Virus record (IMG/VR): IMGVR_UViG_3300044846_003114
Span: 67,213-131,212 of that record
Origin: a virus
Taxonomy: Duplodnaviria > Caudoviricetes
Length of the DNA: 64,000 nt
Reading direction: 5' to 3' (one strand)
The notes under the pieces are model-generated. The model searched no databases and had not been told where the DNA came from. It saw only the letters and a list, made by a program, of their open reading frames with translations. Position numbers and translations under genes: made by a program. Below are positions 1 through 13,015 of the stretch, one piece after another (position 1 is the stretch's first letter; the number at the start of each line of letters is the position of its first letter).

Positions 1-176
1 TTAGTGTAGTGAGTAATTGTTTCTTCGTCCACCGATTCTGTTACCAAATCAAAATTGTTTTTTTTACACAATTTTTCCAATGCGGGTAGACACGCATCGT
101 AGGTTTCTTCATCATCGAAGATTGCTACCAGTTCAGCATATTTGCCGTTATCCAATTCGAAATAAACTTTTACCAT
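1..176 (-). CDS. hypothetical early protein (runs off window edge)
   Basis: ATG at 176 downstream of TATATTTG promoter (199-206); open frame MVKVYFELDNGKYAELVAIFDDEETYDACLPALEK... Confidence 0.7.
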   Translation of the reverse strand, partial: MVKVYFELDNGKYAELVAIFDDEETYDACLPALEKLCKKNNFDLVTESVDEETITHYT

Positions 177-457
177 AGTGTTGTTTTTTTAGTGTACACA
201 AATATACAACTAATACTTTTATAATCCAAATTTATTTTTAAATATTTTTTTGAGTTAGCGCATGCGCGCAACAATGCTCATGTTTACTGGGGTAATACAA
301 CAGCAGATCACGCTGCAGATCATATCTCCAATAATTACTGGGACACCCCAGTAAACTTCAGCGCTGGTCCGGGCTGTGTTTGCGCTGAGGGTAATACATA
401 AAAAAAGGTGAACATTTCTGTCCACCTTCTTATTCACTAACCACACACTAAAAACTA

Positions 458-772
458 TTAATTCGATATTCTCTTTTCTGTTCTAATACACTCAGCTTCC
501 CACTGCTCACATAAAAGTAATACATCTCCCAACACATTCTCATTCAACTCCCAATAACTTTCTTCATAGGTGTCGATAGCGTCCGAACTACTTGAACGAG
601 GTTCGTACACATTTACTTCTACATAATCTTCGGTAAAATATTCCCCAAGTCCTACATAGTTACCCAATGTACCAACAAGAATACTATTCTCACCTTCTAA
701 TTCTCCAATACTAAAACATCCATTAACTTTTAAGATGTCCGTAATACGATTAATGATTTCTGAATTTTCCAT
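458..772 (-). CDS. hypothetical acidic early protein
   Basis: 104-aa ORF, last gene of cassette before terminator at ~400-430. Confidence 0.75.
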   Translation of the reverse strand: MENSEIINRITDILKVNGCFSIGELEGENSILVGTLGNYVGLGEYFTEDYVEVNVYEPRSSSSDAIDTYEESYWELNENVLGDVLLLCEQWEAECIRTEKRISN

Positions 773-773
773 T

Positions 774-1046
774 TTAAATTGATTTAGTGTTATCCCAAAT
801 TATATTACCATTCTCGTCATACAACTCCTCCGTAGGTTCTCCACCATTTTCTTCGGGTATTAAACCTTCAAGAGTTTCGTCAATATGTTCCCACGGCAAT
901 TCCGTGTTATCACCTCTCTCACGAAAAGCAATTGCTAACTTATGAGCCTCTTCCAATGTTTCAGCTTCAATTTCAAATTCGGTACGATACCATGTCGTTA
1001 CCTTTGTGTCTAAATGAAAGTTAAATGTCGTTTGGGTCTGTGCCAT
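774..1046 (-). CDS. DpnD/PcfM-like small protein
   Basis: TTWYRTEFEIEAETLEEAHKLA resembles the DpnD/PcfM (V/I)EA.s.EEA motif. Confidence 0.5.
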   Translation of the reverse strand: MAQTQTTFNFHLDTKVTTWYRTEFEIEAETLEEAHKLAIAFRERGDNTELPWEHIDETLEGLIPEENGGEPTEELYDENGNIIWDNTKSI

Positions 1047-1152
1047 TTTCTATTGATTTTTTAATTGATAAAATAAGTAATACAATCATTATCAGGAAGG
1101 TTACTATAACCCCAAATCCCAATGATAAATAATATAAAATATTCATTTCCAT
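1021..1152 (-). CDS. small membrane protein (43 aa, not in ORF track)
   Basis: MEMNILYYLSLGFGVIVTFLIMIVLLILSIKKSIENGTDPNDI*, fills the gap between operon genes. Confidence 0.6.
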   Translation of the reverse strand: MEMNILYYLSLGFGVIVTFLIMIVLLILSIKKSIENGTDPNDI

Positions 1153-1157
1153 AAATT

Positions 1158-1355
1158 TTAAATTTCACGAATATACATATAATCTTCCAAATCTTCCAAA
1201 GGTATTCTTCCATTATTTGAACTATAATACCCTTGAACTTTATATCGTTCCTTCCATTTGTCAAAAGCCTCAAATGCTTTTTCCTTTGAAGTGTAGTAAG
1301 GTCTATCGAATTCAATCGTAAACCCGTCGGGGGATAAAACTTCGTACCTTGTCAT
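1158..1355 (-). CDS. hypothetical early protein
   Basis: 65-aa ORF tightly packed in operon. Confidence 0.7.
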   Translation of the reverse strand: MTRYEVLSPDGFTIEFDRPYYTSKEKAFEAFDKWKERYKVQGYYSSNNGRIPLEDLEDYMYIREI

Positions 1356-1356
1356 A

Positions 1357-1554
1357 TTAATCTTGTTTAATTAAAGTTTGAGAATACTCTTGTGTAATAA
1401 GTGTGTCCATGTGTTGTGAACCACTATAACGATTTACTTCTCGTTGGGTTACAACTTGATGAGAACCGACGGGAATAAACCCTTCGTTAATGTACTTGTT
1501 TACTTTTTCGGTCAATCCTTCGGGGGATGAACTTGTTAATACTTTGTACTCCAT
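1357..1554 (-). CDS. DUF1737-like protein
   Basis: YKVL...L.EKVNKYINEGF.PVG...YSQ.LIK pattern. Confidence 0.65.
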   Translation of the reverse strand: MEYKVLTSSSPEGLTEKVNKYINEGFIPVGSHQVVTQREVNRYSGSQHMDTLITQEYSQTLIKQD

Positions 1555-1876
1555 ATCTTTTTGTTTTAGTGTATGACAAAGATATAACTTTTATTTCATT
1601 ATACAAATTTATTTTTAAGAATTTTTTACTGCGCACATTTAAGACTTTTTACTGTGCACATTTAAGAATTTTTTCCTGCACTATCATTCCTAAACATTAC
1701 TGGGTTGAATTGTTAACCAGCGCAAATTTCCTGATCAGCGCGCGCAAAACTGGCTAATGATTACTGGGGTAATACAACATAACCCAGTAAACTTATGGGA
1801 TGATCAGGGACGAGAAATCTGTGGACATAAAAAAAGGTGAGACTTTCGTCCCACCCTTTAATTCGGTGTGTGTTTT

Positions 1877-2299
1877 CTATTTAGAATAGAAATCATCCAT
1901 TCGTTGAAGTACCCTATCCAAGTTACAACCACTTTCAGTTTCCCCATTCCAATAGAAGTGATTCATTCTAATTACCTCTAACGAATTTCCAAGTTCCTTA
2001 CTATGTACGAACTCATTATAACCACCCGAGTAATGTAACCCGTCATTGTCAATTCGTAAATTGTTACGATACTCGATAGTAACATCTTTACCATTGAAGT
2101 TTTTAGTGAACTTAACTCCTTTGATTTTATCTCCTTGAAGTCCACCACTTTTACCTTTACGAACCCAACCAAAATCTTTAATGTAGTCAGTCAAACCATC
2201 TACGATTTTAGTTGATACAATTTCCGAGAAAGTTTCTCTTTCTTCTTTTTGTTTTTTCAAGAACTCCTTATAGGTTCCGATGTTTTGTAACATACTCAT
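1877..2299 (-). CDS. hypothetical early protein
   Basis: ATG at 2299 lies downstream of promoter at 2323-2330; terminator at ~1830-1860. Confidence 0.75.
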   Translation of the reverse strand: MSMLQNIGTYKEFLKKQKEERETFSEIVSTKIVDGLTDYIKDFGWVRKGKSGGLQGDKIKGVKFTKNFNGKDVTIEYRNNLRIDNDGLHYSGGYNEFVHSKELGNSLEVIRMNHFYWNGETESGCNLDRVLQRMDDFYSK

Positions 2300-2658
2300 A
2301 TCATTTATATTTTTAGTGAACACAAATATACATCATAAAACTTTATTATCCAAATATTATTTTACTTTTTTTTAAGAATTTTTTTTCACCTGTGATCACA
2401 GGGGGAACATTACTGGGGTAATACAAATAACCCAGTAAACTTATCACTCTGTCGGAACATGTGGTACTTCGGGTACTTGTGGTACATCTTTTGAGGAACT
2501 TGTGGTACTTCGGGTACAAGAGGAACATTGGCGCTGTGCGCAGGTGAACATTACTGGGACACCCCAGTAAACTTGATCACCGGTGCTGTGCAGATACAGT
2601 GCACAGGTAATACATCCCAGTAAAGTTCCGACCCGGTCCACAGTGTGACGGGGTCATC

Positions 2659-2703
2659 AAACAAAAAACCCCCGAACTAAAAGTCCGAGGGTTTAACAAA
2701 TAA
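2659..2703 (-). terminator. intrinsic terminator, near-identical copy at 6731-6774
   Basis: AAACAAAAAACCCCCGAACTAAAAGTCCGAGGGTTTAACAAATAA; hairpin plus U-tract on - strand; related terminators end the other cassettes (~3805, 4318, 4968, 5797, 7583, 8390, 9386, 10675, 11685). Confidence 0.85.
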
Positions 2704-2718
2704 TCTTTAACCTATGTC

Positions 2719-3579
2719 TTACACCAAATGTACAAGTTCCTTGAAGATTTGTCTCTCACGATTTCCGTAAGTTCCGAACATCTTATTTTCAGAATTGTCA
2801 CCCTTACCCATACTATGAGTTGTGTATTTTGTTACACCACTAAATAAACCCCAAATGTTATCACCCTTTTCTTGAATTTCACCATTAAGGTCAACATAGA
2901 ATCTACTTAATTTATTTTGTGTCACGGTAGATAATGAATCAACATCCTTAATATCAACATTCTTTTCGATATTGAATAACGATTTGATTACTCTATCCTT
3001 GATAATATCATCGAAACGAGTTTCACTCATTTTAACGATAGAACCGAACACATTCTTTTCTTCTTGTACTACACCCTCAATTTGTCGACAGATATCTTCT
3101 ATCTTTAATTCCATATTCTTTGTATGACGTACCTTTGAATCTAAATCTTTGTACACACCGAAGAATGTGTTTTGACAACTGATAGTTTTCGAACTAGGAC
3201 CGAACGATAATGAAGTCGAACCATCGAAAGAATTAATCCCAGTAACATAACCCTCGATTCTATCCGTCCCCAAAGTTAAGTCATTAGATTTTAACTGAAC
3301 GAATACTTTTCGTCCACCACCGAACAAACCACCCCTATGAACATCAAGTCCAGTTTGTTGGGACACTTTGAACAATAGTTCCATCATTTGGTCATTCTGA
3401 TATGGTACATAACCATTAGAGTGAATACCCAAGATTGTACTATCATCCTCACGAACGATACCAATTTTATCAGGGATAATAATTCCTGACGAAGTTTGAA
3501 GTCCTTCGGTACGGACTTTCCAATTTAAACCAGTTCTATCCAAGAACTGACTAACCCGATTGTTTTCTACGATTTCCAT
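2719..3579 (-). CDS. DUF932/DUF945 family phage/plasmid protein
   Basis: GLNWKV, Y.PYQN, G.FGGGRKVF, NSFDGS, I.C.N, K.RHT and WGLFSGVT.Y motifs. Confidence 0.85.
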   Translation of the reverse strand: MEIVENNRVSQFLDRTGLNWKVRTEGLQTSSGIIIPDKIGIVREDDSTILGIHSNGYVPYQNDQMMELLFKVSQQTGLDVHRGGLFGGGRKVFVQLKSNDLTLGTDRIEGYVTGINSFDGSTSLSFGPSSKTISCQNTFFGVYKDLDSKVRHTKNMELKIEDICRQIEGVVQEEKNVFGSIVKMSETRFDDIIKDRVIKSLFNIEKNVDIKDVDSLSTVTQNKLSRFYVDLNGEIQEKGDNIWGLFSGVTKYTTHSMGKGDNSENKMFGTYGNRERQIFKELVHLV

Positions 3580-3847
3580 CTGTTTAATTTTTTATGGTTT
3601 AATAAATGATTGTATGACAAAGATAAATTAATCTGGAGTATAATCCAAATTTATTTTTAAAAAAAACTAATTAATTTTTTTGGTGAGGATCCACCTGTGA
3701 TCAGAGCTCCCAATATTACTGGGGAATCGAATACGTTTACAGATATATACGGATACACCCCAGTAATTTTATGGGATGATCAGGGACGGGAAATCTGTGG
3801 ACATAAAAAACCCCCACATTTCTGTGAGGGTTAAAATCTAAAAAATT

Positions 3848-4117
3848 TTATTCTTTGGTTTCAAACTCCAAACCACTATAAAGAAATTCGGTAATATGAT
3901 TAAGGAACTTCACATACAATTCGTTATCAAATTGAATACCACTACCACTATTTTGGACAATCCTAACGAAAGACATTTTTTTATCAATCGGTAGGTTATC
4001 CATTATCCTTTCGGTAAAATCACTACCAACCCACTCATAATTAATTTCACTATCAACGTGTCCTTCAACAACTGAATAGATAGTTTTCTTTACAATTTCA
4101 ATTTCTTCTTGTGTCAT
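3848..4117 (-). CDS. hypothetical early protein
   Basis: single-gene cassette with own promoter and terminator. Confidence 0.75.
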   Translation of the reverse strand: MTQEEIEIVKKTIYSVVEGHVDSEINYEWVGSDFTERIMDNLPIDKKMSFVRIVQNSGSGIQFDNELYVKFLNHITEFLYSGLEFETKE

Positions 4118-4184
4118 ACATTTTATTTTTTAGTGTCTACAAATATACAACAATAATTGTTATACACCAAATTTATTTTTTAAA

Positions 4185-4873
4185 TCTGACCCTGGTATCC
4201 AAATACATTACTGGGTAATACAAGAACACCGGTTCAGGGACCTGCCGAGAATTAATACTGGGTAAACACCCCAGTAAACTTACCGGACGATCAGGTCGAG
4301 AAAAATTCTTGGACATAAAAAAAACCCCCGACAGAATCGGAGGTCTTATTAAAGTAGGTGGTTTTATTACACCAACAAATCTTGTACTGAATGTTCGGAA
4401 GTTTTTTCATCCCACACATCATCATTCCAATCCTCACCGACTTGGGTACAAGTCTTGTAGAAAATTTCAACAACACCATTCTCGATGGTGACAACTCCTT
4501 CGGTTCTCTCGTTGATAGGAATCAAATCCTTTTCAACAAGGAATAGAAGTACGAGTTCGTACTCCAAAAATTGGTCGGTGTTCTCCGACTCAATGTATTC
4601 AACTTGACCTTGGAAGTCCAAGGAGAACTCAAACTCCACATTGGAATTTAGAGTTTTTTCGATTTGGGAAGTGAACAAAGTGTCCATAGTGTGTAGGTCT
4701 ATTGGTTAGTAGACAATACAAATATAAAAAAGAAATTCCGTTTTACAATACATTTATGAAAAATTATTTTACTTTTTTTCTGACCCTGGTAATCCAAATA
4801 CATTACTGGGTAATACAAGAATTCCAGTTCGGGGACCTACTGGAAATTAATACTGGGTAAACACCCCAGTAAA
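4185..4873. repeat. ~94-bp imperfect direct repeats (4185-4278 and 4779-4873) flanking one gene cassette
   Basis: TCTGACCCTGGTA(A)TCCAAATACATTACTGGGTAATACAAGAA...AATTAATACTGGGTAAACACCCCAGTAAA in both copies. Confidence 0.9.
4367..4687 (-). CDS. hypothetical highly acidic protein
   Basis: 106 aa, E/D-rich; single-gene cassette. Confidence 0.75.
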   Translation of the reverse strand: MDTLFTSQIEKTLNSNVEFEFSLDFQGQVEYIESENTDQFLEYELVLLFLVEKDLIPINERTEGVVTIENGVVEIFYKTCTQVGEDWNDDVWDEKTSEHSVQDLLV

Positions 4874-5023
4874 GTAATACAACGATCAGCTCAGGACCTG
4901 ACTTACGGGTAAAGGTAAATTCCCCAGTAAAGTAATACGTCGAACCGGTCGAGGACCTGATACGAACAAAAAAAAAGGATAGTCTTTCGACTACCCTTCT
5001 TCACCTTTCCAACCTATGTATTT

Positions 5024-5587
5024 CTACACAACTACTCCTTCTAAATGTTGTAATACGGACTTCCCTTCCACCCAACAATCGTCCTCACTATAATAACTTC
5101 CACAACATTCAACTAATGTTTTGTGTTCGTGACCTTTATCACAAGTTTCAATTTCGTAAACTTTGTATTGGTAAACTTCACCCGTTAAGTATTCATCATA
5201 AATTCTAACTTCACTATTCATAATCAAACTTAAATTTTCTACACCCCTTTCAAAATCCTTACCACACATTTTGTTTAATTGTTTTTCACTAATGAAAATC
5301 CAACCAACTTGACCACTATCCCATTGACAACTGAACGGACTTGTACTAATAGTAATTCCACTATGGTCGTACATATACAAAGGTTTAATCAAAAGGACTT
5401 TATGGTCACTTACAATTTGTTCCCTCAATTCATCCCAATTATCAAAGTCACTTGACTTGTAGTCTGTTTTGTCACCAATATCATATCTTTTGTGAAAACA
5501 TACAATAGTAGTAATGTTATCCCAATCGGTTCGTGGATTCATCGGGTCGTTATCGTGTTCGACAACCAATTCAAATTTTCTTTTCAT
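5024..5587 (-). CDS. conserved phage/plasmid hypothetical protein
   Basis: NPR..WDN, PLYMYDHSGITIS, WDSGQVGW and YL.GEVY motifs typical of an early mobile-element family. Confidence 0.75.
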   Translation of the reverse strand: MKRKFELVVEHDNDPMNPRTDWDNITTIVCFHKRYDIGDKTDYKSSDFDNWDELREQIVSDHKVLLIKPLYMYDHSGITISTSPFSCQWDSGQVGWIFISEKQLNKMCGKDFERGVENLSLIMNSEVRIYDEYLTGEVYQYKVYEIETCDKGHEHKTLVECCGSYYSEDDCWVEGKSVLQHLEGVVV

Positions 5588-5848
5588 TGTGTTTATTTTT
5601 TAGTGTACACAAATATACTACTATTATTATTATACACCAAATTTATTTTTTAAATCTGATGGAAAAGTTTTTTTTATTACTGGGATGTATGACAAGGATA
5701 CCCCAGTAATTTTTTGAGTCCGTCTTCCTGATGAGGTTCATCTTGTAATACCCAGTAATTAAAACACAATTTCTCCGAACCAAAATTTCTTGGACAAAAA
5801 AAATCCACCCCTTTCGGAGTGGACTTCGGTTAGTAGGGGAACTAACCT

Positions 5849-6379
5849 TTAAATGAACTCGTAAATGTTTCCGTTGTATGACACTTCTTTAACATTATCC
5901 AAACTTACCGATAAGGTTTGTACCTTTCTTTCACTCGGTTGATTTTTGTAATTGTTTGACTTCACTAACCAACTATCAAACAAAGTTTGGTCAATAGGGT
6001 TTCCCTCAAACTCAAATTCAACTTTTGGTTTCACTTCCATAAACCACTCGTATTGAAGATAATACTTTTTTGTATTTTCGTTGTAAAGGATAACATTGTT
6101 GATATGGTTACCAACTTTATTTTCACTTACTTGAAAATTACCTTCACCACCACCCTTAATTTCATTACCCTTTACTCGTTGTTCGTACTCACCACCGATT
6201 AAAACTCTAACCGATTTTTTCTTCACAACTTTTCCATAATACTTGTTCAAACCTTCCCTACCACCTTTGTTCATTTTAGGGATAGTGTGTGTAACTAAAT
6301 TCATAAATGTAGGATTTTTAACCTCGTTCATCATTTTGATAAACTCACCTTGTAGGATTTTGAAACGATTTTTTTTCAT
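5849..6379 (-). CDS. hypothetical early protein
   Basis: 176-aa ORF with downstream terminator. Confidence 0.75.
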   Translation of the reverse strand: MKKNRFKILQGEFIKMMNEVKNPTFMNLVTHTIPKMNKGGREGLNKYYGKVVKKKSVRVLIGGEYEQRVKGNEIKGGGEGNFQVSENKVGNHINNVILYNENTKKYYLQYEWFMEVKPKVEFEFEGNPIDQTLFDSWLVKSNNYKNQPSERKVQTLSVSLDNVKEVSYNGNIYEFI

Positions 6380-6787
6380 AACATTATTTTGTTTATTTTT
6401 TCAATACTCTAAATTACGAATTTTATCCAATATAAAAAAATATATTTAATACTTTTTTATCCACATTCTTAATTTTTTTTTGTGGACAAATTGTGGATAA
6501 CTTTTTCCCCGTGATCCAGAAAATAAATTACTGGGGAAACGAAGAAAAAAAAATTACAAGGTTGTAAGAAATAAAATACTGGGGTATAAAGAAAAAATCT
6601 GTTGATCTACCTGTTCGATATTACTGGGATGTACCCCAGGAAACTTTTCCTGGACGATCAGATCCAATGGTCGTTGTAATGTAATACCCAGTAATTTTTT
6701 CCTGGAGACTCAGGTTCTACTTCTTCTTCCAAACAAAAAACCCCCGAACTAAAAGTCCGAGGGTTTAACAAATAAATCGTGTCGAGT

Positions 6788-7000
6788 CTAATACATTATT
6801 TCAAACTTATCTTCTTCGGGAATTACGGATAAACTTCTTCCGTTATCCCAATTCACACCATAATAACCCATATCATCAACGAATACAATCGTACCCATTG
6901 TGTTAGGTTGAATAGGGTTTGTCTTTGGGTCGTCATCCATTAGAATCAATCTAATTCTTTTACCAACTAATTCTTTTCTGATTTTGAATAGTTCAAACAT
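6788..7000 (-). CDS. DUF4314 protein
   Basis: MDDDP...GT..FVDDMG...VNWDNGRSLSVIP.ED.F. Confidence 0.8.
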   Translation of the reverse strand: MFELFKIRKELVGKRIRLILMDDDPKTNPIQPNTMGTIVFVDDMGYYGVNWDNGRSLSVIPEEDKFEIMY

Positions 7001-7011
7001 TGTTAAAGATT

Positions 7012-7212
7012 TTATTCGTTAGAAAATAACATTTCCATTAAACCAATAACGACGGGATGAATGTCTTTATTGTTTGAATCTCCCCATTGTTTAACTTCCC
7101 CATTTCCTTGAATGTGAAAATTTGTTTTTGAACCATCGGTCAGTTTGAACCAACCCTTGACTTCATTGTCCCCAATGAATTTCATTTTTTGTGTTGTGAT
7201 TTGTGTAGTCAT
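7012..7212 (-). CDS. hypothetical early protein
   Basis: ATG at 7212 downstream of promoter at 7234. Confidence 0.65.
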   Translation of the reverse strand: MTTQITTQKMKFIGDNEVKGWFKLTDGSKTNFHIQGNGEVKQWGDSNNKDIHPVVIGLMEMLFSNE

Positions 7213-7644
7213 TTTGTTTAGATGTTTAGTACCCAAATATACAACTATTATTTTTATATACAAACATTATTTGTTAAAATTTTGTGAAAGAATTTTTCCC
7301 GTGTTGTTACATGTAATTGATTACTGGGGGTAATACGAAGATGTGGTTTTCCCATCTCACGGTGTTCACATTTACTGGGTGTTCACGGTCCGTGAACAAG
7401 TGTCATACGTGAACATAGAATATCCCAGTAATTTATTAGCATGTGCATGTGCCGCTACGGCGCCTGGTGTTGCGCTGTCTGGCGCTTGAATTCCGTGAAA
7501 AATACTTATTTCAAATGAAAAACGCTTATTATCCATAATATATTGTGAAATACGATTATCATTGGTAATACGCACAAAAAGAAAAACCCCCACCATTTCT
7601 GATGAGGGTTCACTTACTAACCACACTATTAAACAAAACTATTA

Positions 7645-7791
7645 TCACATATCGTACGCAAAAGTAGGGATAAAAAACCAAAACATAAAATAAAATGTTA
7701 AACCAATTAGTATTGCCCCTAAAATAGCATCCCAAAATTCCCTTCGGTCGTTTTTATATGTCCACACAAAGGTTTCTATAAATTCTTTCAT
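7645..7791 (-). CDS. small membrane protein
   Basis: MKEFIETFVW...AILGAILIGLTFYFMFWFFIP, one TM helix. Confidence 0.6.
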   Translation of the reverse strand: MKEFIETFVWTYKNDRREFWDAILGAILIGLTFYFMFWFFIPTFAYDM

Positions 7792-7792
7792 C

Positions 7793-8152
7793 TTAATAAG
7801 AGTTTTGGTTATAGGTATCATACGTGTTATAATTTCTTCCACGATTATTTTCTCGATAGTCATTACGAGAAATACGTTGAGGATATCTCGGTCTTGGTAC
7901 AAAGGAGTTTTCCATTTGTTCATCAATCGGTTGAACATTCCAATCTAAATCCATTTGTTTAGAATTTGCCCAATGAATGTTATAAATTGTTTCAAGTCGT
8001 TCAGTTACAATGATATAACTATTCTCGTTGAAGTGAACTTTGGTTACAGGCTCGCCCGTATTCTTGTCAATGATTTCATACATTGAGTGCACATTTTGTG
8101 GATTCATTACCACTGGTCGTTTTGAATTTGAATTTGTCAGTTTAATTAACAT
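7793..8152 (-). CDS. FlbD-like small protein
   Basis: MLIKLT...PVVMNPQNVHSMYE...TKVHF...IIVTERLETI resembles the FlbD fold; N/R/Y-rich tail. Confidence 0.5.
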   Translation of the reverse strand: MLIKLTNSNSKRPVVMNPQNVHSMYEIIDKNTGEPVTKVHFNENSYIIVTERLETIYNIHWANSKQMDLDWNVQPIDEQMENSFVPRPRYPQRISRNDYRENNRGRNYNTYDTYNQNSY

Positions 8153-8433
8153 AACATTTACATTTAAGGTGAATAATATAATTCCTTTTTGTTGATACAA
8201 AGATATAACAATAATATTAAACCACCAAATTTATTTAAAGAAATTTATCTAATGGTTCCGACGGGAACAATGTATTACTGGGGAAATGAAGATGATGTAA
8301 AATCTGTGGTTCCTCCTGAAATCATTTACTGGGTAATACACCCCAGTAATAAATCCGAATCGACGAGGAGGACAAAAAATCTTGAGCATAAAAAAACCCT
8401 CGTAGAAACGAAGGTCTTTATTTAAAATCTTTA

Positions 8434-9102
8434 CTACTTTATCCGTCTTACAACGACCAAGACCATTGCCGCCCCTTTCTTAGCTCCGTCATTGTTGTCG
8501 AGATACTCGAAAATGTTCTCAATGTCATACTTGTAACCACCCTCACGATTAATAAAAGTTTTGATAACCCTCATAGTTTTACCATTGTCTTGCCCTTTGG
8601 GTATTTGATAAGAGTTCAGCTTATCGATAGTATTACAAAAAAGTGTCGACGGCCCTGGTGTGATTCGTTTGTTGAATGTTAAGGACAAAGTACCACCCAC
8701 CTCGATAATATCATTTCTAAATGTATGTCGAAGCTCTTCGTGGAATGTGCCAATTTGACCACAATAGTCTAGTATCAAATGGCTATACTCCCCTTTGTTA
8801 GCATTAAATATAATATCCGCAATTGAGCCAAAGTAAAGCGATGGAGTTTTCCCAACGAAATACTTCGCCTTTTGTTTCTTGATATTGCGTTTTAGCCTGT
8901 CGAAGGTTAGTTCATCTCGTTCGCACATAACATAGCGATACTTTCGAGAAACATCCTGGTAGATTGTTTTCTCAATTTCAAAATGTTCAGCGGGCAAAGA
9001 TAGAATTTTGTAGTTCTTCGTTTCCGAGTTGTGGATTGCTTCGACCATTATATTTCTGGCCGTACTCTTGTTCGTTCCTTTGTGATTGGTGAAGGTGTTC
9101 AT
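8434..9102 (-). CDS. putative class I SAM-dependent methyltransferase-fold protein
   Basis: ILSLPA (motif I-like), MCERD acidic strand end, ILDYCG (motif IV-like), GGTLSLTF. Confidence 0.45.
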   Translation of the reverse strand: MNTFTNHKGTNKSTARNIMVEAIHNSETKNYKILSLPAEHFEIEKTIYQDVSRKYRYVMCERDELTFDRLKRNIKKQKAKYFVGKTPSLYFGSIADIIFNANKGEYSHLILDYCGQIGTFHEELRHTFRNDIIEVGGTLSLTFNKRITPGPSTLFCNTIDKLNSYQIPKGQDNGKTMRVIKTFINREGGYKYDIENIFEYLDNNDGAKKGAAMVLVVVRRIK

Positions 9103-9438
9103 ATCATAACATTAAAAGATTAAAGAATACACAAATATAATACTTTTTCCATTATACACAAAATAAAAATGTTAATCTTTTCTAAAAATTTATTTATCGG
9201 TCTGACGGGAAAGTTTATTACTGGGGAAATGAAGATGAAGATTTTCTGTAAGAGTAAAAAATCATTTACTGGGACACTCCACCCAGTAATTTAATACTGA
9301 TGATCATCGGAGATTTCTTCAGACTTCACGGAGCATATCCCAGTAAAATATCCGGATGGGAAGATGATGTAGAAATTCTTGGACATAAAAAAAGGGATAT
9401 CATTTCTGATACCCCAATTTTCACTAACACCACAAATA

Positions 9439-9699
9439 CTAATCTTTATAAATGATTTTATTTGTAATGTCTTTTATAATCTCTCGTATTGTATTACCCC
9501 TAACCCCAACTTCAACCATACAACCATAAATGTTGGTTATTATTGTGTAAACGTGTTTAAAGTCACGATACACTTCACGATTACCCCAACCATTACCTTT
9601 CTTAATTGTTAATCTCGTGGATTCCCAACCTTTCTTATTGTTAACGTAAATTGTTATGTTGAAATTAGTATCGTAATACGTCTTTCTATATGTTTCCAT
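9439..9699 (-). CDS. hypothetical protein
   Basis: 86-aa ORF coupled to upstream gene. Confidence 0.65.
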   Translation of the reverse strand: METYRKTYYDTNFNITIYVNNKKGWESTRLTIKKGNGWGNREVYRDFKHVYTIITNIYGCMVEVGVRGNTIREIIKDITNKIIYKD

Positions 9700-9700
9700 A

Positions 9701-10336
9701 TTACTTAGTTAAGATACCCAACTTATGTAGGTCGTTGTAATTAAATGTGTTATTCAACTTCTTACCGAATATGTTTTCGTAAATGATTTCCATATTAACC
9801 TTATTCAACTTCGGTTTCTTAATTCCATACTTCTCACAAAGTTTAACAAAGTTTCGTGTATCACAAACGATTTCAACATTCCTACTTTCTTCGGTATTAA
9901 ACCATTGATTACCCGACTTGGTACCAACCCCACTCACACCAATAGTACAGAATTTAAATCCACCACAATCTCCCCACCAATTATCTTTCATATCCATTTC
10001 ATACACTTTGGTAATTAGAACAAAGATATTCTCATTGTTCCAATGTTTTCTAACCACGATTTGACCTTCAACGAATTTTTTAGTGTCCTTCTTAACAATC
10101 TTTTTAGTTAATCTTTCCACTTCTTCCTCGTAGATTCTTCTCCTCATCATATAATCACTATACATACTATCCTTGATTTTATCCACTCTACTAACGAAAG
10201 AGGTTTCACTTTGATAATACTTGTTCTCCAATTCTTTGATTTTTTCTTTTGTCATCAAGATTTCATTTTCGAAATTTCTTAATGTTGTCGTTTCGTCTTT
10301 ACGAGGTCGACCAACCTTTCTTTTTAATGTTTCCAT
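9701..10336 (-). CDS. hypothetical protein with N-terminal AT-hook and coiled coil
   Basis: KRKVGRPRK AT-hook motif. Confidence 0.7.
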   Translation of the reverse strand: METLKRKVGRPRKDETTTLRNFENEILMTKEKIKELENKYYQSETSFVSRVDKIKDSMYSDYMMRRRIYEEEVERLTKKIVKKDTKKFVEGQIVVRKHWNNENIFVLITKVYEMDMKDNWWGDCGGFKFCTIGVSGVGTKSGNQWFNTEESRNVEIVCDTRNFVKLCEKYGIKKPKLNKVNMEIIYENIFGKKLNNTFNYNDLHKLGILTK

Positions 10337-10729
10337 TTGTTTATGTGTTTAGTGTCCACAAATATAAAACTAATTCCATTATATACAAAATAAAAATGTT
10401 AATCTTTTCTAAAAATTTATTAACCGGTAAACGGGGGATAATGTATTACTGGGGAAATGAAGATGAAGAATTCCTCAAGAGGTGAAATGGATATTACTGG
10501 GATGTATTACCCAGTAATTGATTTCCGTTGGACGGGGTTCCAAAATGGTCTATCATACATGTAATACCCAGTAATGTAATACCGACGATCGTTATAAATT
10601 TCTTCAGAGTTCTGTGTTGAATATCCCAGTAAATTATCTTACCTGTCACGGTGTGTCGGAGATTCCTCCTCAAACAAAAATCCCCCGAAGAAAAACTCCG
10701 AGGGATTCAACAAGAATGGAAAAACAAAT

Positions 10730-11068
10730 CTAACTTTCAATCAACCTATCAATAACATCAACTAATTCATCAAACATAATGTCGTGGTCAATTGTTTCAA
10801 CAACAACCATCATATCGTTCACTAATCGGACTTCATAATAATCTAAACCATTTAATGTAATCAATACGAATTGTTTCCACTTCGCACCCGTTACTTTCAA
10901 TAGAATACCTTTAACATAACCATCCTCCGTTAAACCTATACGGATAAGTTTTGTTACACCCCAACACATAAAAGGAATACCCCCTTGTGTTTTGTACAAT
11001 ACATACATAGTGTCACTGGGGTTAAACTCTCGTACCCCCAAACTGGAAAGTTTTTGTTCCGTTGTCAT
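10730..11068 (-). CDS. hypothetical early protein
   Basis: single-gene cassette. Confidence 0.75.
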   Translation of the reverse strand: MTTEQKLSSLGVREFNPSDTMYVLYKTQGGIPFMCWGVTKLIRIGLTEDGYVKGILLKVTGAKWKQFVLITLNGLDYYEVRLVNDMMVVVETIDHDIMFDELVDVIDRLIES

Positions 11069-11738
11069 ATCATTTTGTTTTTAGTGTATACAAATATAAC
11101 GCTATTACCGGATTATTCCAAACTTTTTCTGTTAAATTTTTGTGAAGGTGAGGTTCACCAGAAATATATTCCTGGGGTACACCCCAGTAAGGTTTTTTGA
11201 AAAAACAAGAAAATTTTTTTTATATTGTTTTTTTAACCCAGTAAACTTTTTCGTAATGTTACAACCTTGTAATTTTAAAAAAAAGTGAAAAAAAATTTGG
11301 AGTGTACTAGAAATAGTAAAAAATCGGAGAAAAGTGAAATAACATTACTGGGTTGTAGGGAAGGATATTTTTTTTTTAGAATATAAAGATAAAAATTTTT
11401 TTTGTTGTTTACAAACTTTTTTTATTACTGGGTTAACTTTTTATGATCCCCGGACGATCATCCAAAATAAATTACTGGGGTGTGCAGTTGAGTCGTACAC
11501 CCGGATGTCGTGGAAAACATTCCTGGGGTAATAATTCTAAAATGTGCGCAGTAAAAAGTCTTAAATGTGCGCAGTACCCCAGTAAACAAAAACAACGATC
11601 AGGGAAAAAATCAGGTTTCCTTCCAAAATAACCCAGTAAGGTTTCTTGTAATGTTACAGTGTGAGGATGATGAGTGGGAGAAATAAAAAACCCCCACCAT
11701 TTCTGATGAGGGTTTGGGGGAGGGGGAACACTAATCTT

Positions 11739-11858
11739 TTATCTCCACAAGTTCACTTTACCAACAACACAATGAGGTGTCTTCGGTCTGTGATGACGAT
11801 TCACAACACAAGATGAGAACAATACGATGACCATAATTAAACTGAATACTTTTTTCAT
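11739..11858 (-). CDS. small putative lipoprotein (39 aa, not in ORF track)
   Basis: MKKVFSLIMVIVLFSSC lipobox. Confidence 0.6.
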   Translation of the reverse strand: MKKVFSLIMVIVLFSSCVVNRHHRPKTPHCVVGKVNLWR

Positions 11859-11863
11859 TTACT

Positions 11864-12067
11864 TTATTTTAATTCTTGTTCGGGTAAACTGATGATTAAT
11901 AACAACACACCAAATAGGAATACGATAGTCCATAGACCACCTATCCAATTTAAACTACTACCAAATTGAATACTTCCGTCTGTAAACAAACCGAGGAATA
12001 GGAGTAGGGAACATACCGATATCAATGTCATCCCGACATTGAACATTCTGTTGTAGGTTTTTTTCAT
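11864..12067 (-). CDS. small two-TM membrane protein
   Basis: two hydrophobic segments; ATG at 12067 downstream of promoter at 12087. Confidence 0.7.
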   Translation of the reverse strand: MKKTYNRMFNVGMTLISVCSLLLFLGLFTDGSIQFGSSLNWIGGLWTIVFLFGVLLLIISLPEQELK

Positions 12068-12166
12068 ATCATTTGTTTTTAGAACACAAAGATATAAAAC
12101 TATTTCCATTATACCAAATACTAATGTTAATGTTTTCCTAATAGATGTGGGACCTCAGGATACACA

Positions 12167-12270
12167 GGGGGGTTATTACTGGGTAGACCTCCCTATACCC
12201 ATAGGTGGGGGGTCCCCCCTCCCCGTATCCCCCCTTAATTAGGGGTTTTTGGGGGGGTCTAAACAGGGGG
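12167..12270. other. G/C-run palindromic element at the early/late boundary
   Basis: GGGGGG-T-CCCCCC, CCCCT-TAATT-AGGGG and several G5-G7 runs in otherwise AT-rich DNA. Confidence 0.7.
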
Positions 12271-12376
12271 TCAATGCCGTAACAGAAATTTTTCTGGAAA
12301 AAAAGTCAAAAAATGGACTTTACCTCCTAAAGTAGAAATAAAATTTTCCAGATTTTTTTTAAGATATTTATATCAT

Positions 12377-13015
12377 ATGAAACTATTAGACACTATATAC
12401 GAATCCGTTCTATTAGAATACTCACATAAACTCATTGACCAATTGGTAGATAGGTTTAGTGAGGAGGGTGTAGATCCCGAAGAAGCGAGGGAGTATATCA
12501 ATTTGTTTCATAGGTTTTCTCAAGGACTCGATCCTGACAAAAGGGATATCACCAAGTATTCGTGGGACGAACTATATAGAACCGTTAATGATAAGAAAGA
12601 CAATAGAAGAATTAAGGCGGGGAAAATCGGGGACAAGAACATAGATAAAGATGATGTTGTTTATGGTAAGGATGGTGTGATGATATACAGAGGGGACAGT
12701 AAGGAGAAATGTATTAGATATGGTAATGGTTACAATTTATGTATATCTTCAAGAGGAGATGATAACAAATATGATGAATATACTCATGTAACTAAAAATT
12801 ACTATTTTATATTCAACAATAACTTAGATAAGGATGATCCGTTACATTTAGTTGTTATACAGAGACTTTTATATCCTTTAACACGTGATTCAAGTCCGTA
12901 TGTATTATGGGATGCCGAAAACAGGTTGATGTTTCCTGTAGACAAATTACCAAGTTTCAATACAATCGAATTGATACTACCTTGGTTAGAAGGACTTGAA
13001 CATATCTTCGTATAG
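12377..13015 (+). CDS. hypothetical protein with MKLLD leader; shares a domain with 26157-27923
   Basis: IY...K.KC..YG...LCISS....Y..Y....YYFIF pattern. Confidence 0.75.
   Translation: MKLLDTIYESVLLEYSHKLIDQLVDRFSEEGVDPEEAREYINLFHRFSQGLDPDKRDITKYSWDELYRTVNDKKDNRRIKAGKIGDKNIDKDDVVYGKDGVMIYRGDSKEKCIRYGNGYNLCISSRGDDNKYDEYTHVTKNYYFIFNNNLDKDDPLHLVVIQRLLYPLTRDSSPYVLWDAENRLMFPVDKLPSFNTIELILPWLEGLEHIFV

What the first reader, a model, noticed from the sequence alone, without database searches (positions are those of the whole stretch)
255..11600. Spacers are packed with restriction-site-like palindromes that seem scarce elsewhere (decoy/bait hypothesis)
Seen: spacers contain dense, spacer-specific sets of short sites. 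GCGC/TGCGCA/AGCGCT/CTGCAG occur at 258-390, 1630-1746, 2531-2604, 7459-7486 and 11544-11572. GTAC occurs five times at 2464-2518. TGATCA/GATC occurs about 20 times. GGATCC+GAGCTC occur at 3687-3709. ACCGGT/CCGG/GGWCC/CCWGG occur at 4190-4300 and 4783-4960. CATG/CACG occur at 7309-7450, and GAAGA(TGA) recurs at 8289, 9232 and 10459. I noticed no GCGC in the 52 kb downstream by eye. Inference: sites otherwise avoided are concentrated in expendable non-coding DNA between self-sufficient cassettes and bracketed by the TTACTGGG boxes. This could be a restriction sponge or sacrificial-cut design, or a sensor of host methylation.
Basis: partly seen in the sequence, partly recalled or inferred. Interest (0 to 1): 0.8.

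Follow-up and report, generated by a model that had tools for sequence, protein, structure and literature searches.

The report
GATC and GCGC kept between phage cassettes
In a giant freshwater phage that has removed the restriction-type words GATC and GCGC from nearly all its DNA, these two words survive and pile up only in the structured gaps between its small early genes, where they look like working parts of a repeated control element and not like general restriction decoys.

Summary
The general claim is wrong. Spacers do not hold more palindromes than chance: in the spacer cores, 4-mer palindromes number 225 against 266±14 in shuffles, and 6-mers 81 against 75±8. Two words do behave as claimed. 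GCGC gives 21 in 6.9 kb of spacers against 14 in the other 124 kb. GATC gives 24 against 88. Other avoided words (CTAG, ACGT, GGCC, CATG) stay scarce in spacers.

GATC lies 10-14 nt outside a TTACTGGG/CCCAGTAA box: 15 observed, 1.4 expected. GCGC occurs in small local groups, some pairing in predicted stems. Close relatives repeat the contrast. A distant relative with a different box does so for GATC. A 310-kb relative has no GATC at all, spacers included.

Best reading (confidence 0.4): the sites belong to the lineage-specific dyad modules between a terminator and the next promoter (PeSL-like cassettes). They are not a general bait. A sacrificial-cut or methylation-gate role is not excluded. 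The scan has noted the same pattern before on other DNA (e1-5405014 and others). Host, methylation state and the box-binding factor are unknown.

The parts
177..457 (-). Spacer 1: promoter of gene 3-176, core, terminator of gene 458-772. Boxes at 284(+), 335(+), 347(-). GCGC at 258, 264, 266, 361, 382. GATC at 306, 318.
   Evidence: The core folds as one long hairpin in which GCGC 258 pairs with GCGC 382 (z -3.1 on + and -3.4 on -). Promoter at 199-230. Terminator at 431-402.
1555..1876 (-). Spacer 2. Boxes at 1697(+), 1761(+), 1783(-). GCGC at 1631, 1720, 1738, 1740, 1742. GATC at 1733 and 1802; the one at 1802 is 11 nt outside the box.
   Evidence: Module CCCAGTAA-N11-GATCAGGGACGAGAAATCTGTGGACAT-A-run-terminator.
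2300..2718 (-). Spacer 3. Boxes at 2410(+), 2431(-), 2551(+), 2563(-), 2616(-). GATC at 2394 and 2575. GCGC at 2531 and 2538 (GCGC-TGT-GCGC). Five GTAC within a local direct repeat at 2464-2514.
   Evidence: Fold z -4.5 on + and -3.3 on - for 2520-2660. GCGC 2531 pairs with 2538.
3580..3847 (-). Spacer 4. Boxes at 3716(+) and 3759(-). GATC at 3688, at 3699 (13 nt outside the left box) and at 3778 (11 nt outside the right box). GGATCC at 3687 and GAGCTC at 3704.
   Evidence: GATC 3699 pairs with 3778 in the predicted fold.
4118..4366 (-). Spacer 5. Boxes at 4208(+) and 4270(-). GATC at 4289 (11 nt outside the box). ACCGGT at 4228.
4688..5023 (-). Spacer 6. Boxes at 4803(+), 4865(-), 4923(-). 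GATC at 4884 (11 nt outside the box). ACCGGT at 4944.
   Evidence: The GATC at 4884 is CGTC in relatives of groups B and C.
5588..5848 (-). Spacer 7. Boxes at 5677(+), 5702(-), 5751(-). No GATC and no GCGC.
   Evidence: A spacer can exist without either word.
6380..6787 (-). Spacer 8. Boxes at 6528(+), 6621(+), 6687(-). GATC at 6513, 6604, 6656, 6661. Three DnaA-box-like 9-mers at 6457-6500.
7213..7792 (-). Spacer 9. Its right part may hold a small gene at 7645-7938. Boxes at 7321(+), 7372(+), 7424(-). GCGC at 7460, 7472, 7482. CATG at 7310, 7440, 7446. GTGAAC/GTTCAC repeats.
8153..8433 (-). Spacer 10. Boxes at 8275(+), 8326(+), 8342(-). No GATC and no GCGC.
9103..9438 (-). Spacer 11. Boxes at 9218(+), 9266(+), 9282(-), 9339(-). 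GATC at 9302, inside the 10-bp palindrome GATGATCATC, 12 nt outside a box.
10337..10729 (-). Spacer 12. Boxes at 10446(+), 10494(+), 10510(-), 10567(-), 10625(-). GATC at 10587 (ACGATCGT, 12 nt outside a box).
11069..11863 (-). Spacer 13, the longest. Seven boxes. GATC at 11445, 11456, 11597. GCGC at 11546 and 11569, in a direct repeat that is the reverse complement of the repeat at 1626-1665.
   Evidence: GCGC family 1631/11546/11569.
12110..12376 (.). Divergent end of the array. Last box at 12176, G/C-run element, no GATC and no GCGC.
   Evidence: The element matches L131 at 87% over 99 nt and L129 at 90% over 50 nt.
2719..3579 (-). Example cassette gene (286 aa, DUF932). I used it to find relatives.
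   Evidence: Pfam DUF932 E 1.3e-21. 27 related loci in IMG/VR.

Best explanation
The window begins inside a block of about 19 kb of small minus-strand early-type gene cassettes of an uncultured lake-water jumbo phage (genome 59878-79588, window -7334 to 12376). Each cassette has its own Bacteroidota-type promoter (TTTG-N17-21-TAnnTTTG; the consensus is recalled) and an intrinsic terminator. Between the terminator of one cassette and the promoter of the next lies a core, about 80-300 nt in most spacers and up to 675 nt. It is built from TTACTGGG/CCCAGTAA boxes in inverted orientation plus short GC-rich segments, and it has imperfect dyad symmetry.

The 'restriction-like palindromes' are those GC-rich segments. 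Only GATC and GCGC are really in excess. GATC is part of a composite motif, CCCAGTAA-N10-13-(Y)GATC(AG). GCGC occurs in small local groups such as CAGCGC...GCGCTG and GCGC-N3-GCGC, some of which pair in predicted stems.

I infer that these words are working or structural parts of the inter-cassette element. That element would be a binding site for a lineage-specific box-binding factor, a DNA hairpin/cruciform, or both. The words are copied from spacer to spacer with cassette duplication and exchange, as in PeSL cassettes. They persist there, while restriction-type selection removes the same words from the rest of the genome. A relative with no GATC at all suggests the family has long faced this selection.

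Shown: the counts, the offsets, the dyad stability, the paralogy, and the repetition in relatives. Inferred: the binding factor or structure, and the selective reason.
For: (1) Specificity. Only GATC (23 against 11.2±3.2) and GCGC (19 against 2.5±1.5) exceed dinucleotide shuffles in the cores. CTAG, ACGT and GGCC are depleted there and total palindromes are below expectation. So spacers are not simply exempt from avoidance.

(2) Position. 15 of the 23 GATC within 45 nt outside a box lie at offsets 11-14. In the 10-14 window that is 15 observed against 1.4 expected from position-specific base frequencies. GATC ranks first of the 24 permutations of G, A, T, C; the next is TCAG with 6. With relatives added, 30 of 49 GATC in 160 unique contexts lie at 10-14. 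By my own comparison, 12 of the 17 paralogy-collapsed families have a member there.

(3) Structure. All 14 cores folded, of 18 (4 skipped for length), are more stable than shuffles: mean z -2.2 on + and -1.6 on -. 22 of the 29 GATC/GCGC in them are paired, 8 of them with another copy of the same word. Spacer 1 has z -3.1/-3.4 and spacer 3 has z -4.5/-3.3.

(4) Boxes are under constraint. 110 of 121 box-by-relative comparisons are conserved, against 67% for any spacer 4-mer. There are 48 boxes in the window against 2 expected.

(5) Repetition. Close relatives (86-95% nt identity) show the same contrast. In L066, GATC is 11/9.3 in spacers and 0/16.5 in CDS; GCGC is 13/2.7 and 1/3.9. In G004, 13 of 32 GCGC lie in the last 5.3 kb of 176 kb. 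The distant L131 (53% aa identity, box GTGTGGCA) has GATC 35/25 in intergenic DNA and 6/40 in CDS, while CATG is 0/25 and 0/40. L131 also shares the module CCACAGATTTyyCGTCC(C)TGATC after the terminator.

(6) Genome-wide avoidance acts on DNA and on palindromes. The most under-represented CDS 4-mers are GATC (z -13.9), CATG (-10.6), CTAG (-7.1) and CCGG (-5.7). ATC is not avoided on the mRNA strand.

(7) Cassette architecture. 14 promoters on the minus strand and 0 on the plus strand. 22 terminator-like sites against 8.3±3.5 in shuffles, 18 of them on the minus strand. Terminator modules are 100% identical over 30 nt and promoter modules about 88-93% identical over 41-59 nt, across lineages whose DUF932 proteins are 53-66% identical. 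Cassette indels between relatives break at paralogous box modules.
Against: Orthologous conservation of the sites is no better than background. GATC is kept in 41 of 61 comparisons, GCGC in 30 of 45, and any spacer 4-mer in 9954 of 14892 (all 67%). Box-proximal GATC is kept in 13 of 19 and distal GATC in 12 of 18. Individual sites are therefore dispensable and turn over.

Six loci of other lineages have no GATC in spacers or CDS (L123, L124, L125, L129, L130, L132); I read spacers only in L125/G001, which show the same terminator-core-promoter architecture. The 310,691-bp relative G001 has 0 GATC against about 975-993 expected, and its spacers show no excess of GCGC (2/6.3). GATC is therefore not needed for the element in the family.

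In L131 the GATC offsets from its box vary. Two spacers here (7 and 10) have neither word.

After collapsing paralogues the GATC excess over local expectation is marginal (17 against 11.2). Part of the fixed offset could be old paralogy. No binding protein or structure has been shown.
Confidence: 0.4

Rival explanations
1. Enzyme-recognition sites of the phage itself. On this reading the GATC and GCGC beside the boxes are targets of phage-encoded DNA methylases, or of a nickase. They act as a methylation-gated switch for box binding, which would time the shut-off of early genes, or as processing sites. The words are avoided elsewhere to prevent spurious action or attack by methyl-dependent restriction.
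For: The genome encodes a C5 cytosine methylase (genome 24988-25962; Pfam E 2.6e-39; the catalytic domain resembles M.HaeIII and M.HhaI) and an N6/N4 methylase. The close relative G004 and the relatives G001 and G002 encode a Dam-family (D12) methylase. A GmrSD-N + HNH protein lies just beyond the array at 13738-15153. GATC has a fixed offset from the box. Words that are 'avoided everywhere except at defined non-coding positions' are the usual signature of a self-used signal. Known analogues from passages of PMC3517423: the T5 major-nick consensus R/GCGCRGG, and lineage-specific nick consensus words in phages tf and phiKMV. Dam-gated sites such as P1 pac, pap and mom are recalled.
Against: The methylase specificities are unknown. 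The D12 enzyme of G004 finds no solved relative at E<=0.001. G001 and G002 carry the D12 methylase, yet G001 has no GATC in the whole record and the G002 locus examined (L129) has none. No MutH- or DpnII-like nuclease was found in G000, G004 or G005, which are 39%, 53% and 21% complete. Sites are not conserved above background. Known phage nick sites lie on one strand only (passages of PMC3517423), whereas the boxes here lie on both strands (29 and 35).
Confidence: 0.2
2. Neutral re-accumulation plus hitch-hiking. The ancestor had purged GATC, as G001 has. Selection then relaxed in this genus. Sites return fastest in the fast-evolving, often duplicated spacer cores. Module duplication explains the local excess and the common offset.
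For: Ortholog conservation equals background. Spacers diverge faster than CDS (84-89% against 89-97% identity in 8 of 9 relatives). Sites collapse into fewer families (25 to 17, and 21 to 9). The genus still carries about one GATC per 1.5 kb (112 in 131 kb; 119 in 176 kb). That many sites could not protect against a type II GATC enzyme, so present selection may be weak. Spacer GATC O/E is about 1.1 on mononucleotide expectation.
Against: Other non-coding DNA of the same genome stays depleted: GATC 3 against 20-30 expected and GCGC 0 against 3-6. Spacers remain depleted in CTAG, ACGT and GGCC, so selection on words does act there. GCGC is 3-8 times over local expectation even after collapsing (9 families against 2.5). 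The offset excess (15 against 1.4) is specific to GATC among the 24 permutations. In L131, CATG is absent from spacers while GATC is abundant.
Confidence: 0.2
3. Sites are placed between self-sufficient cassettes as bait or sacrificial cut points, so that a restricted first-entering array is cut only between intact transcription units and can still express its early (anti-defence) genes. Alternatively they sense host methylation.
For: Array CDS are the most palindrome-poor partition. 4-mer O/E is 0.66 against 0.78 in other CDS, and 6-mer O/E is 0.53 against 0.73. CCGG is 0/11.2, CGCG 0/11.2 and GATC 9/39.3. The neighbouring spacers hold GATC, GCGC and CCGG (12/6.5). So selection appears to protect units and not the whole molecule. 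Every cassette has its own promoter and terminator. One cassette encodes DUF932, a family I recall from anti-restriction or leading regions of plasmids. The contrast recurs in relatives.
Against: Only 2-3 of the avoided words are involved. CTAG, ACGT, GGCC and CATG are not concentrated. There is no excess of palindromes overall. Relatives under the strongest GATC avoidance have none in their spacers. A cut between cassettes still breaks the genome. Whether the array enters first, or lies in a terminal repeat, is unknown. The GATC offset from the box is not predicted by a bait.
Confidence: 0.12

Closest known systems
PeSL (promoter-early stem-loop) mobile regulatory cassettes of T4-type phages. 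I read the abstract of PMC4122927. PMC2839356 I saw in the search listing only.
   Same: Small, mostly orphan early genes are each flanked by a composite terminator/promoter motif. The motifs are conserved between otherwise unrelated flanks (terminators 100% identical over 30 nt across lineages). Cassette indels between close relatives break in the motifs.
   Different: The promoters are of Bacteroidota type. An extra lineage-specific core, about 80-300 nt in most spacers, with inverted 8-nt boxes and GC-rich palindromic segments sits between terminator and promoter. No sequence relation to T4-type PeSLs was tested or is expected. PeSLs are not described as holding avoided restriction words, as far as the abstract shows.
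Restriction-site (palindrome) avoidance in phage genomes. I read passages of PMC6286503.
   Same: There is genome-wide under-representation of GATC, CATG, CTAG and CCGG against Markov expectation, and complete loss of GATC in a 310-kb relative. The paper reports that GATC is under-represented in all 46 phages whose hosts encode the cognate enzyme.
   Different: Here two avoided words are locally in excess at defined non-coding positions. The words 'intergenic', 'non-coding', 'early genes' and 'cluster' have 0 occurrences in the main text of that paper. My search for 'restriction site avoidance' + bacteriophage + intergenic returned one unrelated paper.
Dam-gated GATC clusters in cis elements (P1 pac hexamers TGATCA/G, oriC, pap, mom, IS10).
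   Same: GATC, often as TGATCA or GATCAG, is clustered next to a protein-binding repeat in non-coding DNA. A Dam-family methylase is encoded in a close relative.
   Different: Methylation was not shown and the methylase specificity is unknown. The host is probably Bacteroidota and not an enterobacterium. Individual sites are not conserved above background.
First-step-transfer (pre-early) region of T5 and its localized nicks. The FST biology is recalled. The nick consensus R/GCGCRGG comes from passages of PMC3517423.
   Same: A block of small early genes with repeats, palindromes and DnaA-box-like words (6457-6500). A GCGC-containing word serves as a phage-specific DNA mark.
   Different: From memory, the T5 FST DNA lacks the sites that the rest of the genome carries. 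Here the spacers carry the sites and the rest avoids them. T5 nick sites lie on one strand, whereas GCGC and the boxes here lie on both. Order of entry and terminal repeats are unknown for this phage.

Membership tests
Restriction-site avoidance (anti-restriction by loss of sites) | Short palindromic type II words are under-represented against a maximal-order Markov expectation. | tested here: met
   GATC O/E 0.25 (z -13.9), CATG 0.47, CTAG 0.44, CCGG 0.51 on the CDS sense strand. GCGC is 10 observed against 27 (Markov) or 70.7 (mononucleotide) in other CDS.
Restriction-site avoidance (anti-restriction by loss of sites) | The host encodes the cognate restriction enzyme. | not testable with these tools
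   The host is unknown. The record is a lake-water metagenome virus contig.
   Only GATC and GCGC are in excess. CTAG is 1 against 7.3, ACGT 4 against 13.1, GGCC 0 against 5.1, CATG 10 against 14.4. All 4-mer palindromes number 225 against 265.9.
PeSL-type regulatory cassettes | A composite terminator stem-loop plus early promoter lies between small genes of one orientation. | tested here: met
   14 promoters, all on the minus strand. 18 minus-strand terminator-like sites, 12 of them at cassette 3' ends.
PeSL-type regulatory cassettes | Motifs are shared between unrelated flanks, and indel breakpoints between close relatives fall in them. | tested here: met
   Terminators are identical over 30 nt in L123, L124 and L125. 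L015 lacks window 1786-2535 and 3815-4268, with breaks at paralogous box modules. Base-level breakpoints were not resolved.
PeSL-type regulatory cassettes | Belongs to T4-type phages, with sigma-70 early promoters. | tested here: not met
   The promoters fit TTTG/TAnnTTTG. The ten large proteins scanned against PHROGs gave no T4-type structural or replication family. So this works like PeSL but is not a member.
Integron attC cassette array | An IntI-type tyrosine recombinase is present. | tested here: not met
   PF00589 has 0 matches in 4 records, including a 93%-complete relative. PF00239 has 0 of 4. The window's own genome is only 39% complete.
REP/BIME elements with RAYT | A Y1 (IS200/IS605-like) transposase is present. 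| tested here: not met
   PF01797 has no match in G000. The genome is 39% complete, so this is weak.
Localized phage nick sites (T5, tf, phiKMV) | Consensus sites lie on one DNA strand only. | tested here: not met
   TTACTGGG occurs 29 times on + and 35 times on - in the genome. GATC and GCGC are palindromes. The strand rule comes from passages of PMC3517423.
Dam-gated cis elements | A GATC-specific methylase is present, and methylation changes binding. | tested here: inconclusive
   A D12-family methylase is found in G004, G001 and G002 but not in the 39% of this genome that is held. Its specificity is unknown. Methylation is not testable here.
Known RNA families | A match to an Rfam covariance model. 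| tested here: not met
   Over 1-13000 there are only two sub-threshold matches (E 0.29 and 0.76).

The most novel reading that the evidence does not exclude
In this family of freshwater jumbo phages, selection on restriction-type words acts per early transcription unit and not per DNA molecule. GATC, GCGC and CCGG are kept out of every cassette but are kept, at a set distance from lineage-specific boxes, in the gaps between cassettes. There they serve as deliberate enzyme-recognition points. They may be sacrificial cut sites that leave each early anti-defence gene expressible after restriction. Or they may be targets of the phage's own Dam-family and C5 methylases, which gate box binding and so time early-gene shut-off.
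Probability: 0.2. Interest if true: 0.8.

Novelty: new variant of a known kind. Interest (0 to 1): 0.5.

Why it matters
Restriction-site avoidance is usually treated as a property of the whole genome. Here a phage lineage purges GATC and GCGC from 95% of its DNA and keeps them at defined positions beside a repeated box between early genes. A sister lineage has purged all of about 990 expected GATC. The contrast separates two forces, defence pressure and cis-element function, inside one genome, and it gives a concrete handle: box-N11-GATC.

If the sites prove to be methylation-gated or sacrificial, that would be a new layer of phage early-gene control or counter-defence. If they are only structural, the finding still defines a PeSL-like cassette system with a lineage-specific core in Bacteroidota-type jumbo phages. 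Earlier notes of this scan describe a similar pattern in other freshwater phages, so it may be widespread.

Tried and rejected
Near-identity search of 1-12000 and a tblastn of one large protein against the GenBank phage collection found nothing; records of the window's own genome may be left out of that search.

Rfam gave no family.

PHROGs and Pfam scans of 20 large or cassette proteins gave little: glycosyltransferases, methyltransferases, GmrSD_N+HNH, a weak GIY-YIG and DUF932.

ATC occurs 185 times on the sense strand of array CDS and 1397 times in other CDS, and the most avoided 4-mers are palindromes.

A plus-strand small RNA made by host polymerase is unlikely, because there are 0 full Bacteroidota-type promoters on the plus strand.

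I considered mini-CRISPR or anti-CRISPR repeat mimicry and dropped it. Only about 12-14 nt around the box is shared and the periods are 47-58 nt, by my reading.

An integron-like or REP-like mechanism: no tyrosine recombinase, serine recombinase or Y1 transposase was found. All records but one are incomplete.

GATC-specific nucleases (MutH, DpnII families) were not found in G000, G004 or G005, which are incomplete genomes.

Specificity of the C5 methylase: only the catalytic domain matches M.HaeIII and M.HhaI. The D12 methylase of G004 has no solved relative at E<=0.001.

Sequencing runs: all 24 listed holders are lake-water metagenome DNA runs kept as Logan contigs, and no RNA holder is listed. 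In the four runs I laid, the contigs are short and break in the spacers. The joints have sides under 30 nt and may be repeat artefacts. No table of molecule ends was possible. So I obtained no evidence on cuts, nicks, depth or expression.

Literature: a search for TTACTGGG returns only primers and the like. 'Restriction sites' + decoy + 'phage genome' + anti-restriction returns reviews only, and I saw the listing only. Supplements were not opened.

A simple re-equilibration estimate of my own (no call) suggests relaxed selection could raise spacer GATC to about 0.6-0.9 of expectation while CDS sits at 0.25. I keep this as a rival and have not rejected it.

Full report
WHAT THE REGION IS. The window is the last 64,000 bases of a 131,212-base IMG/VR virus record that CheckV rates 39% complete. 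Relatives reach 310,691 bases at 93% completeness, so this is a jumbo phage. The runs that hold it are lake-water metagenomes.

From genome 59878 to 79588 (window -7334 to 12376) all real genes lie on the minus strand. In window 1-12400 there are 14 matches to TTTG-N17-21-TAnnTTTG on the minus strand and none on the plus strand. That the motif is the Bacteroidota sigma-A promoter is recalled knowledge. There are 22 terminator-like sites against 8.3±3.5 in shuffles. 18 are on the minus strand and 12 sit at cassette 3' ends. Each small gene is therefore its own transcription unit.

The gaps between units carry TTACTGGG or its complement: 48 in the window against 1.98±1.50 expected, and all 48 lie at or before 12,183. 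One cassette gene (2719-3579) is a DUF932 protein. The other nine cassette proteins I scanned have no significant family.

CHECK OF THE OBSERVATION.

I split the genome into four parts: 19 array spacers of at least 100 nt (6,909 bp), array CDS (12,802 bp), other CDS (100,581 bp) and other intergenic DNA (10,920 bp). Ten short ORFs were dropped as spurious, because they lay on the plus strand or contained a box while being under 100 aa.

Total palindrome density in spacers is ordinary. For 4-mers, O/E is 0.77 (mononucleotide) and 0.89 (Markov), against 0.78 and 0.89 in other CDS. For 6-mers it is 0.90 and 0.97.

I then took the spacer cores, with 75 nt of promoter side and 55 nt of terminator side removed (4,357 bp, GC 0.38). 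Against 1000 dinucleotide-preserving shuffles, 4-mer palindromes number 225 against 265.9±14.0 and 6-mers 81 against 75.2±8.1. The spacers look site-rich by eye partly because the neighbouring cassette genes are the most palindrome-poor part of the genome: O/E 0.66 for 4-mers and 0.53 for 6-mers, with CCGG 0/11.2 and CGCG 0/11.2.

TWO WORDS ARE DIFFERENT.
- GCGC: 21 in spacers (6.5 expected) against 14 in the remaining 124 kb. The density ratio is 26.7 (Fisher p 1.6e-18).
- GATC: 24 in spacers (22.2 expected) against 88 elsewhere. The ratio is 5.0 (p 3.7e-9).
- In cores, GATC is 23 against 11.2±3.2 and GCGC is 19 against 2.5±1.5. No site lies in the promoter or terminator segments.
- Collapsing sites within 12 nt of each other, or with at least 64% flank identity, leaves 17 GATC and 9 GCGC families.

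Elsewhere the genome avoids GATC strongly. CDS O/E is 0.25 and this is the most under-represented 4-mer (z -13.9). It is followed by the palindromes CATG, CTAG and CCGG. Other intergenic DNA has 3 against 20-30 expected. The avoidance is not an mRNA-strand effect, because ATC is common on the sense strand.

The other avoided words are not concentrated in spacers: CTAG 1 against 7.3, ACGT 4 against 13.1, GGCC 0 against 5.1, CATG 10 against 14.4. GTAC is neither avoided elsewhere nor enriched.

ANATOMY OF THE SITES. I oriented every box as CCCAGTAA and read outwards. 15 of the 23 GATC within 45 nt lie at offsets 11-14. From position-specific base frequencies 1.4 are expected at offsets 10-14. 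GATC ranks first among the 24 permutations of its letters, and the next two, TCAG (6) and CGAT (4), overlap it.

Adding nine close relatives and keeping unique contexts gives 30 of 49 GATC at offsets 10-14. The intervening 10-13 nt differ widely between copies, while (Y)GATC(AG) is kept.

One module, reading on the sense strand, is: terminator T-run, CCACAGATTTyyCGTCCCTGATC, N11-13, box. It recurs here and in the distant locus L131.

GCGC never occurs singly in a spacer. The counts are 4, 5, 5, 2, 3 and 2 in six spacers. It occurs in forms such as CAGCGC...GCGCTG, GCGC-TGT-GCGC and GCGCATGCGC.

All 14 cores I folded, of 18 (4 skipped for length), are more stable than shuffles, with mean z -2.2 on the plus strand and -1.6 on the minus strand. 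22 of the 29 GATC/GCGC in them are paired in the minimum-energy fold. 8 of these pair with another copy of the same word: 258 with 382, 1720 with 1738, 2531 with 2538, and 3699 with 3778. The cores are thus imperfect dyads made of box arms and GC-rich clamps.

RELATIVES. A 15-nt box pattern and the DUF932 protein brought in IMG/VR loci.

Close relatives (86-95% nt identity) repeat the contrast. In L066, GATC is 11/9.3 in spacers and 0/16.5 in CDS, and GCGC is 13/2.7 and 1/3.9. In L083, GATC is 9/5.3 and 1/15.6, and GCGC is 13/1.7 and 1/4.1. L051 is an exception for GCGC (0/2.4).

The 176,430-base relative G004 has about 110-120 kb that does not overlap this record. It has GATC 119 against 519 expected and GCGC 32 against 118, and 13 of the 32 lie in its last 5.3 kb, inside the array.

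Orthologous sites are kept no better than any spacer 4-mer. GATC is kept in 41 of 61 comparisons, GCGC in 30 of 45, and all spacer 4-mers in 9954 of 14892. Boxes are kept in 110 of 121. Box-proximal GATC is kept in 13 of 19 and distal GATC in 12 of 18.

More distant lineages have DUF932 proteins 45-66% identical. Where I read the spacers (L125/G001 and L131) they show the same terminator-core-promoter layout. Several lineages have other frequent box-like words: GCCAACCA, CGCCAAAC, GATTGGCA, CCCGGTAA, CTTTGGCA, GTGTGGCA, AAACTAGAC.
- Six loci have no GATC in spacers or in CDS. The whole of G001 has 0 against about 975-993 expected. Its spacers show no excess of GCGC (2/6.3 against 63/275 elsewhere), only CCGG in a box-proximal TCCGGA.
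- L131 behaves like this phage for GATC (35/25 in intergenic DNA, 6/40 in CDS), while CATG is absent from both partitions (0/25 and 0/40).
- GCGC is rich in spacers and poor in CDS in L123 (10/4 against 1/11), L124 (10/4 against 0/12) and L129 (5/4 against 1/9).

Terminator modules are 100% identical over 30 nt and promoter modules about 88-93% identical over 41-59 nt across these lineages. Cassette indels between close relatives break at paralogous box modules: L015 lacks window 1786-2535 and 3815-4268.

INTERPRETATION. Avoided sites are not generally parked in spacers, so a general bait is not supported. Spacers are also not simply exempt from selection on words, because CTAG, ACGT and GGCC are depleted there and L131 lacks CATG in its spacers. 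The local abundance of GATC and GCGC therefore needs a specific cause.

The box-linked offset, the pairing in dyads and the sharing of a GATC-bearing module with a distant lineage point to a cis-element role. I take that as the best reading (confidence 0.4). The element would be a binding site for a lineage-specific factor, a hairpin/cruciform, or both. It spreads by PeSL-like cassette recombination (abstract of PMC4122927).

Three things count against a strong version of this reading. Individual sites turn over at the background rate. Two spacers lack both words. GATC-free relatives have the same kind of spacers.

RIVALS.
(a) Targets of the phage's own methylases or of a nickase. A C5 and an N6/N4 methylase are encoded here. 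A Dam-family methylase is encoded in G004, G001 and G002. Specificities are unknown. The T5 nick consensus R/GCGCRGG is a known analogue (passages of PMC3517423).
(b) Neutral re-accumulation after relaxed selection, with hitch-hiking on module duplication.
It fits the extra-strong purging of cassette genes but predicts neither the offset nor the restriction to two words.

No tyrosine or serine recombinase, Y1 transposase, MutH or DpnII family member was found, but most of these records are incomplete.

KNOWN OR NEW. Word avoidance in phages is well known; passages of PMC6286503 report GATC under-represented in all 46 phages whose hosts have the enzyme. Terminator/promoter cassettes are also known (PeSL). 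A local, position-specific exception to avoidance between early cassettes was not found in my searches. Those searches are limited to open-access text and I opened no supplements.

Earlier notes of this scan describe the same kind of pattern in other freshwater phages. One of them (e1-5405014) describes GATC at a preferred distance from an operator-like box in a jumbo phage. I reached the offset result before I saw that note.

I class this as a new variant of known kinds, with interest 0.5.

Noticed in passing
G001 (loci L146-L161), whole 310,691-bp relative: There is not one GATC in 310,691 bases, against about 975-993 expected. AGCT (57 against 993) and CTAG (151 against 993) are also very low. 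Yet this record and G002 encode a Dam-family (D12) methylase. A methylase with no target in its own genome suggests action on host DNA, or another specificity.
   Followed up: partly
window 6457-6500 (spacer 8); G001 spacer starting at 41606: Two perfect DnaA-box 9-mers and one with a single mismatch lie within 44 bp, next to A/T runs and four GATC. A TGTGGATAA word lies in an array spacer of G001. This could be an origin or a DnaA-titration site. The window-wide count of such words is not above chance (28 against 29.6).
   Followed up: partly
loci L123-L132: Several lineages of this phage family have a different frequent 8-nt word in their early-gene spacers: GCCAACCA, CGCCAAAC, GATTGGCA, CCCGGTAA, CTTTGGCA, GTGTGGCA, AAACTAGAC. 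A GTATTAC/GTAATAC word beside the box is seen here and in G001. This suggests co-evolution with a DNA-binding factor.
   Followed up: partly
window 3803-3832, 7582-7611, 11685-11714 and loci L123-L125, L131: Terminator hairpins, and to a lesser degree promoter regions, are 88-100% identical over 28-59 nt between phages whose DUF932 proteins are only 53-66% identical. Either the constraint is very strong or regulatory modules are exchanged between lineages.
   Followed up: partly
window 12205-12303: The G/C-run element at the divergent end of the array matches L131 at 87% over 99 nt. Parts of it match L129 at 90% over 50 nt and L125 at 87% over 47 nt. It is a conserved array boundary of unknown function.
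   Followed up: partly
window 13738-15153 (+): A 471-aa protein with a GmrSD N-terminal domain (DUF262 type) and a C-terminal HNH nuclease lies just beyond the array. This is a modification-dependent restriction-like nuclease carried by a phage.
   Followed up: no
window 1-12400, array coding sequence: The cassette genes are more palindrome-poor than the rest of the genome. 4-mer O/E is 0.66 against 0.78 and 6-mer O/E is 0.53 against 0.73. CCGG and CGCG are each 0 against 11.2 expected. This is what one would expect of DNA exposed to restriction first.
   Followed up: partly
window 1786-2535 and 3815-4268 against L015: The close relative lacks these two cassettes. The alignment breaks fall at paralogous box-GATC-terminator modules. 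Short Logan contigs of four lake runs also break in the spacers.
   Followed up: partly
genome 24988-25962, 28719-28961 and 16301-17014 (outside the window): There is a C5 cytosine DNA methylase (E 2.6e-39), a second partial C5-like match, and an N6/N4 methylase (E 9.2e-9). Several glycosyltransferases lie in the window and upstream.
   Followed up: partly
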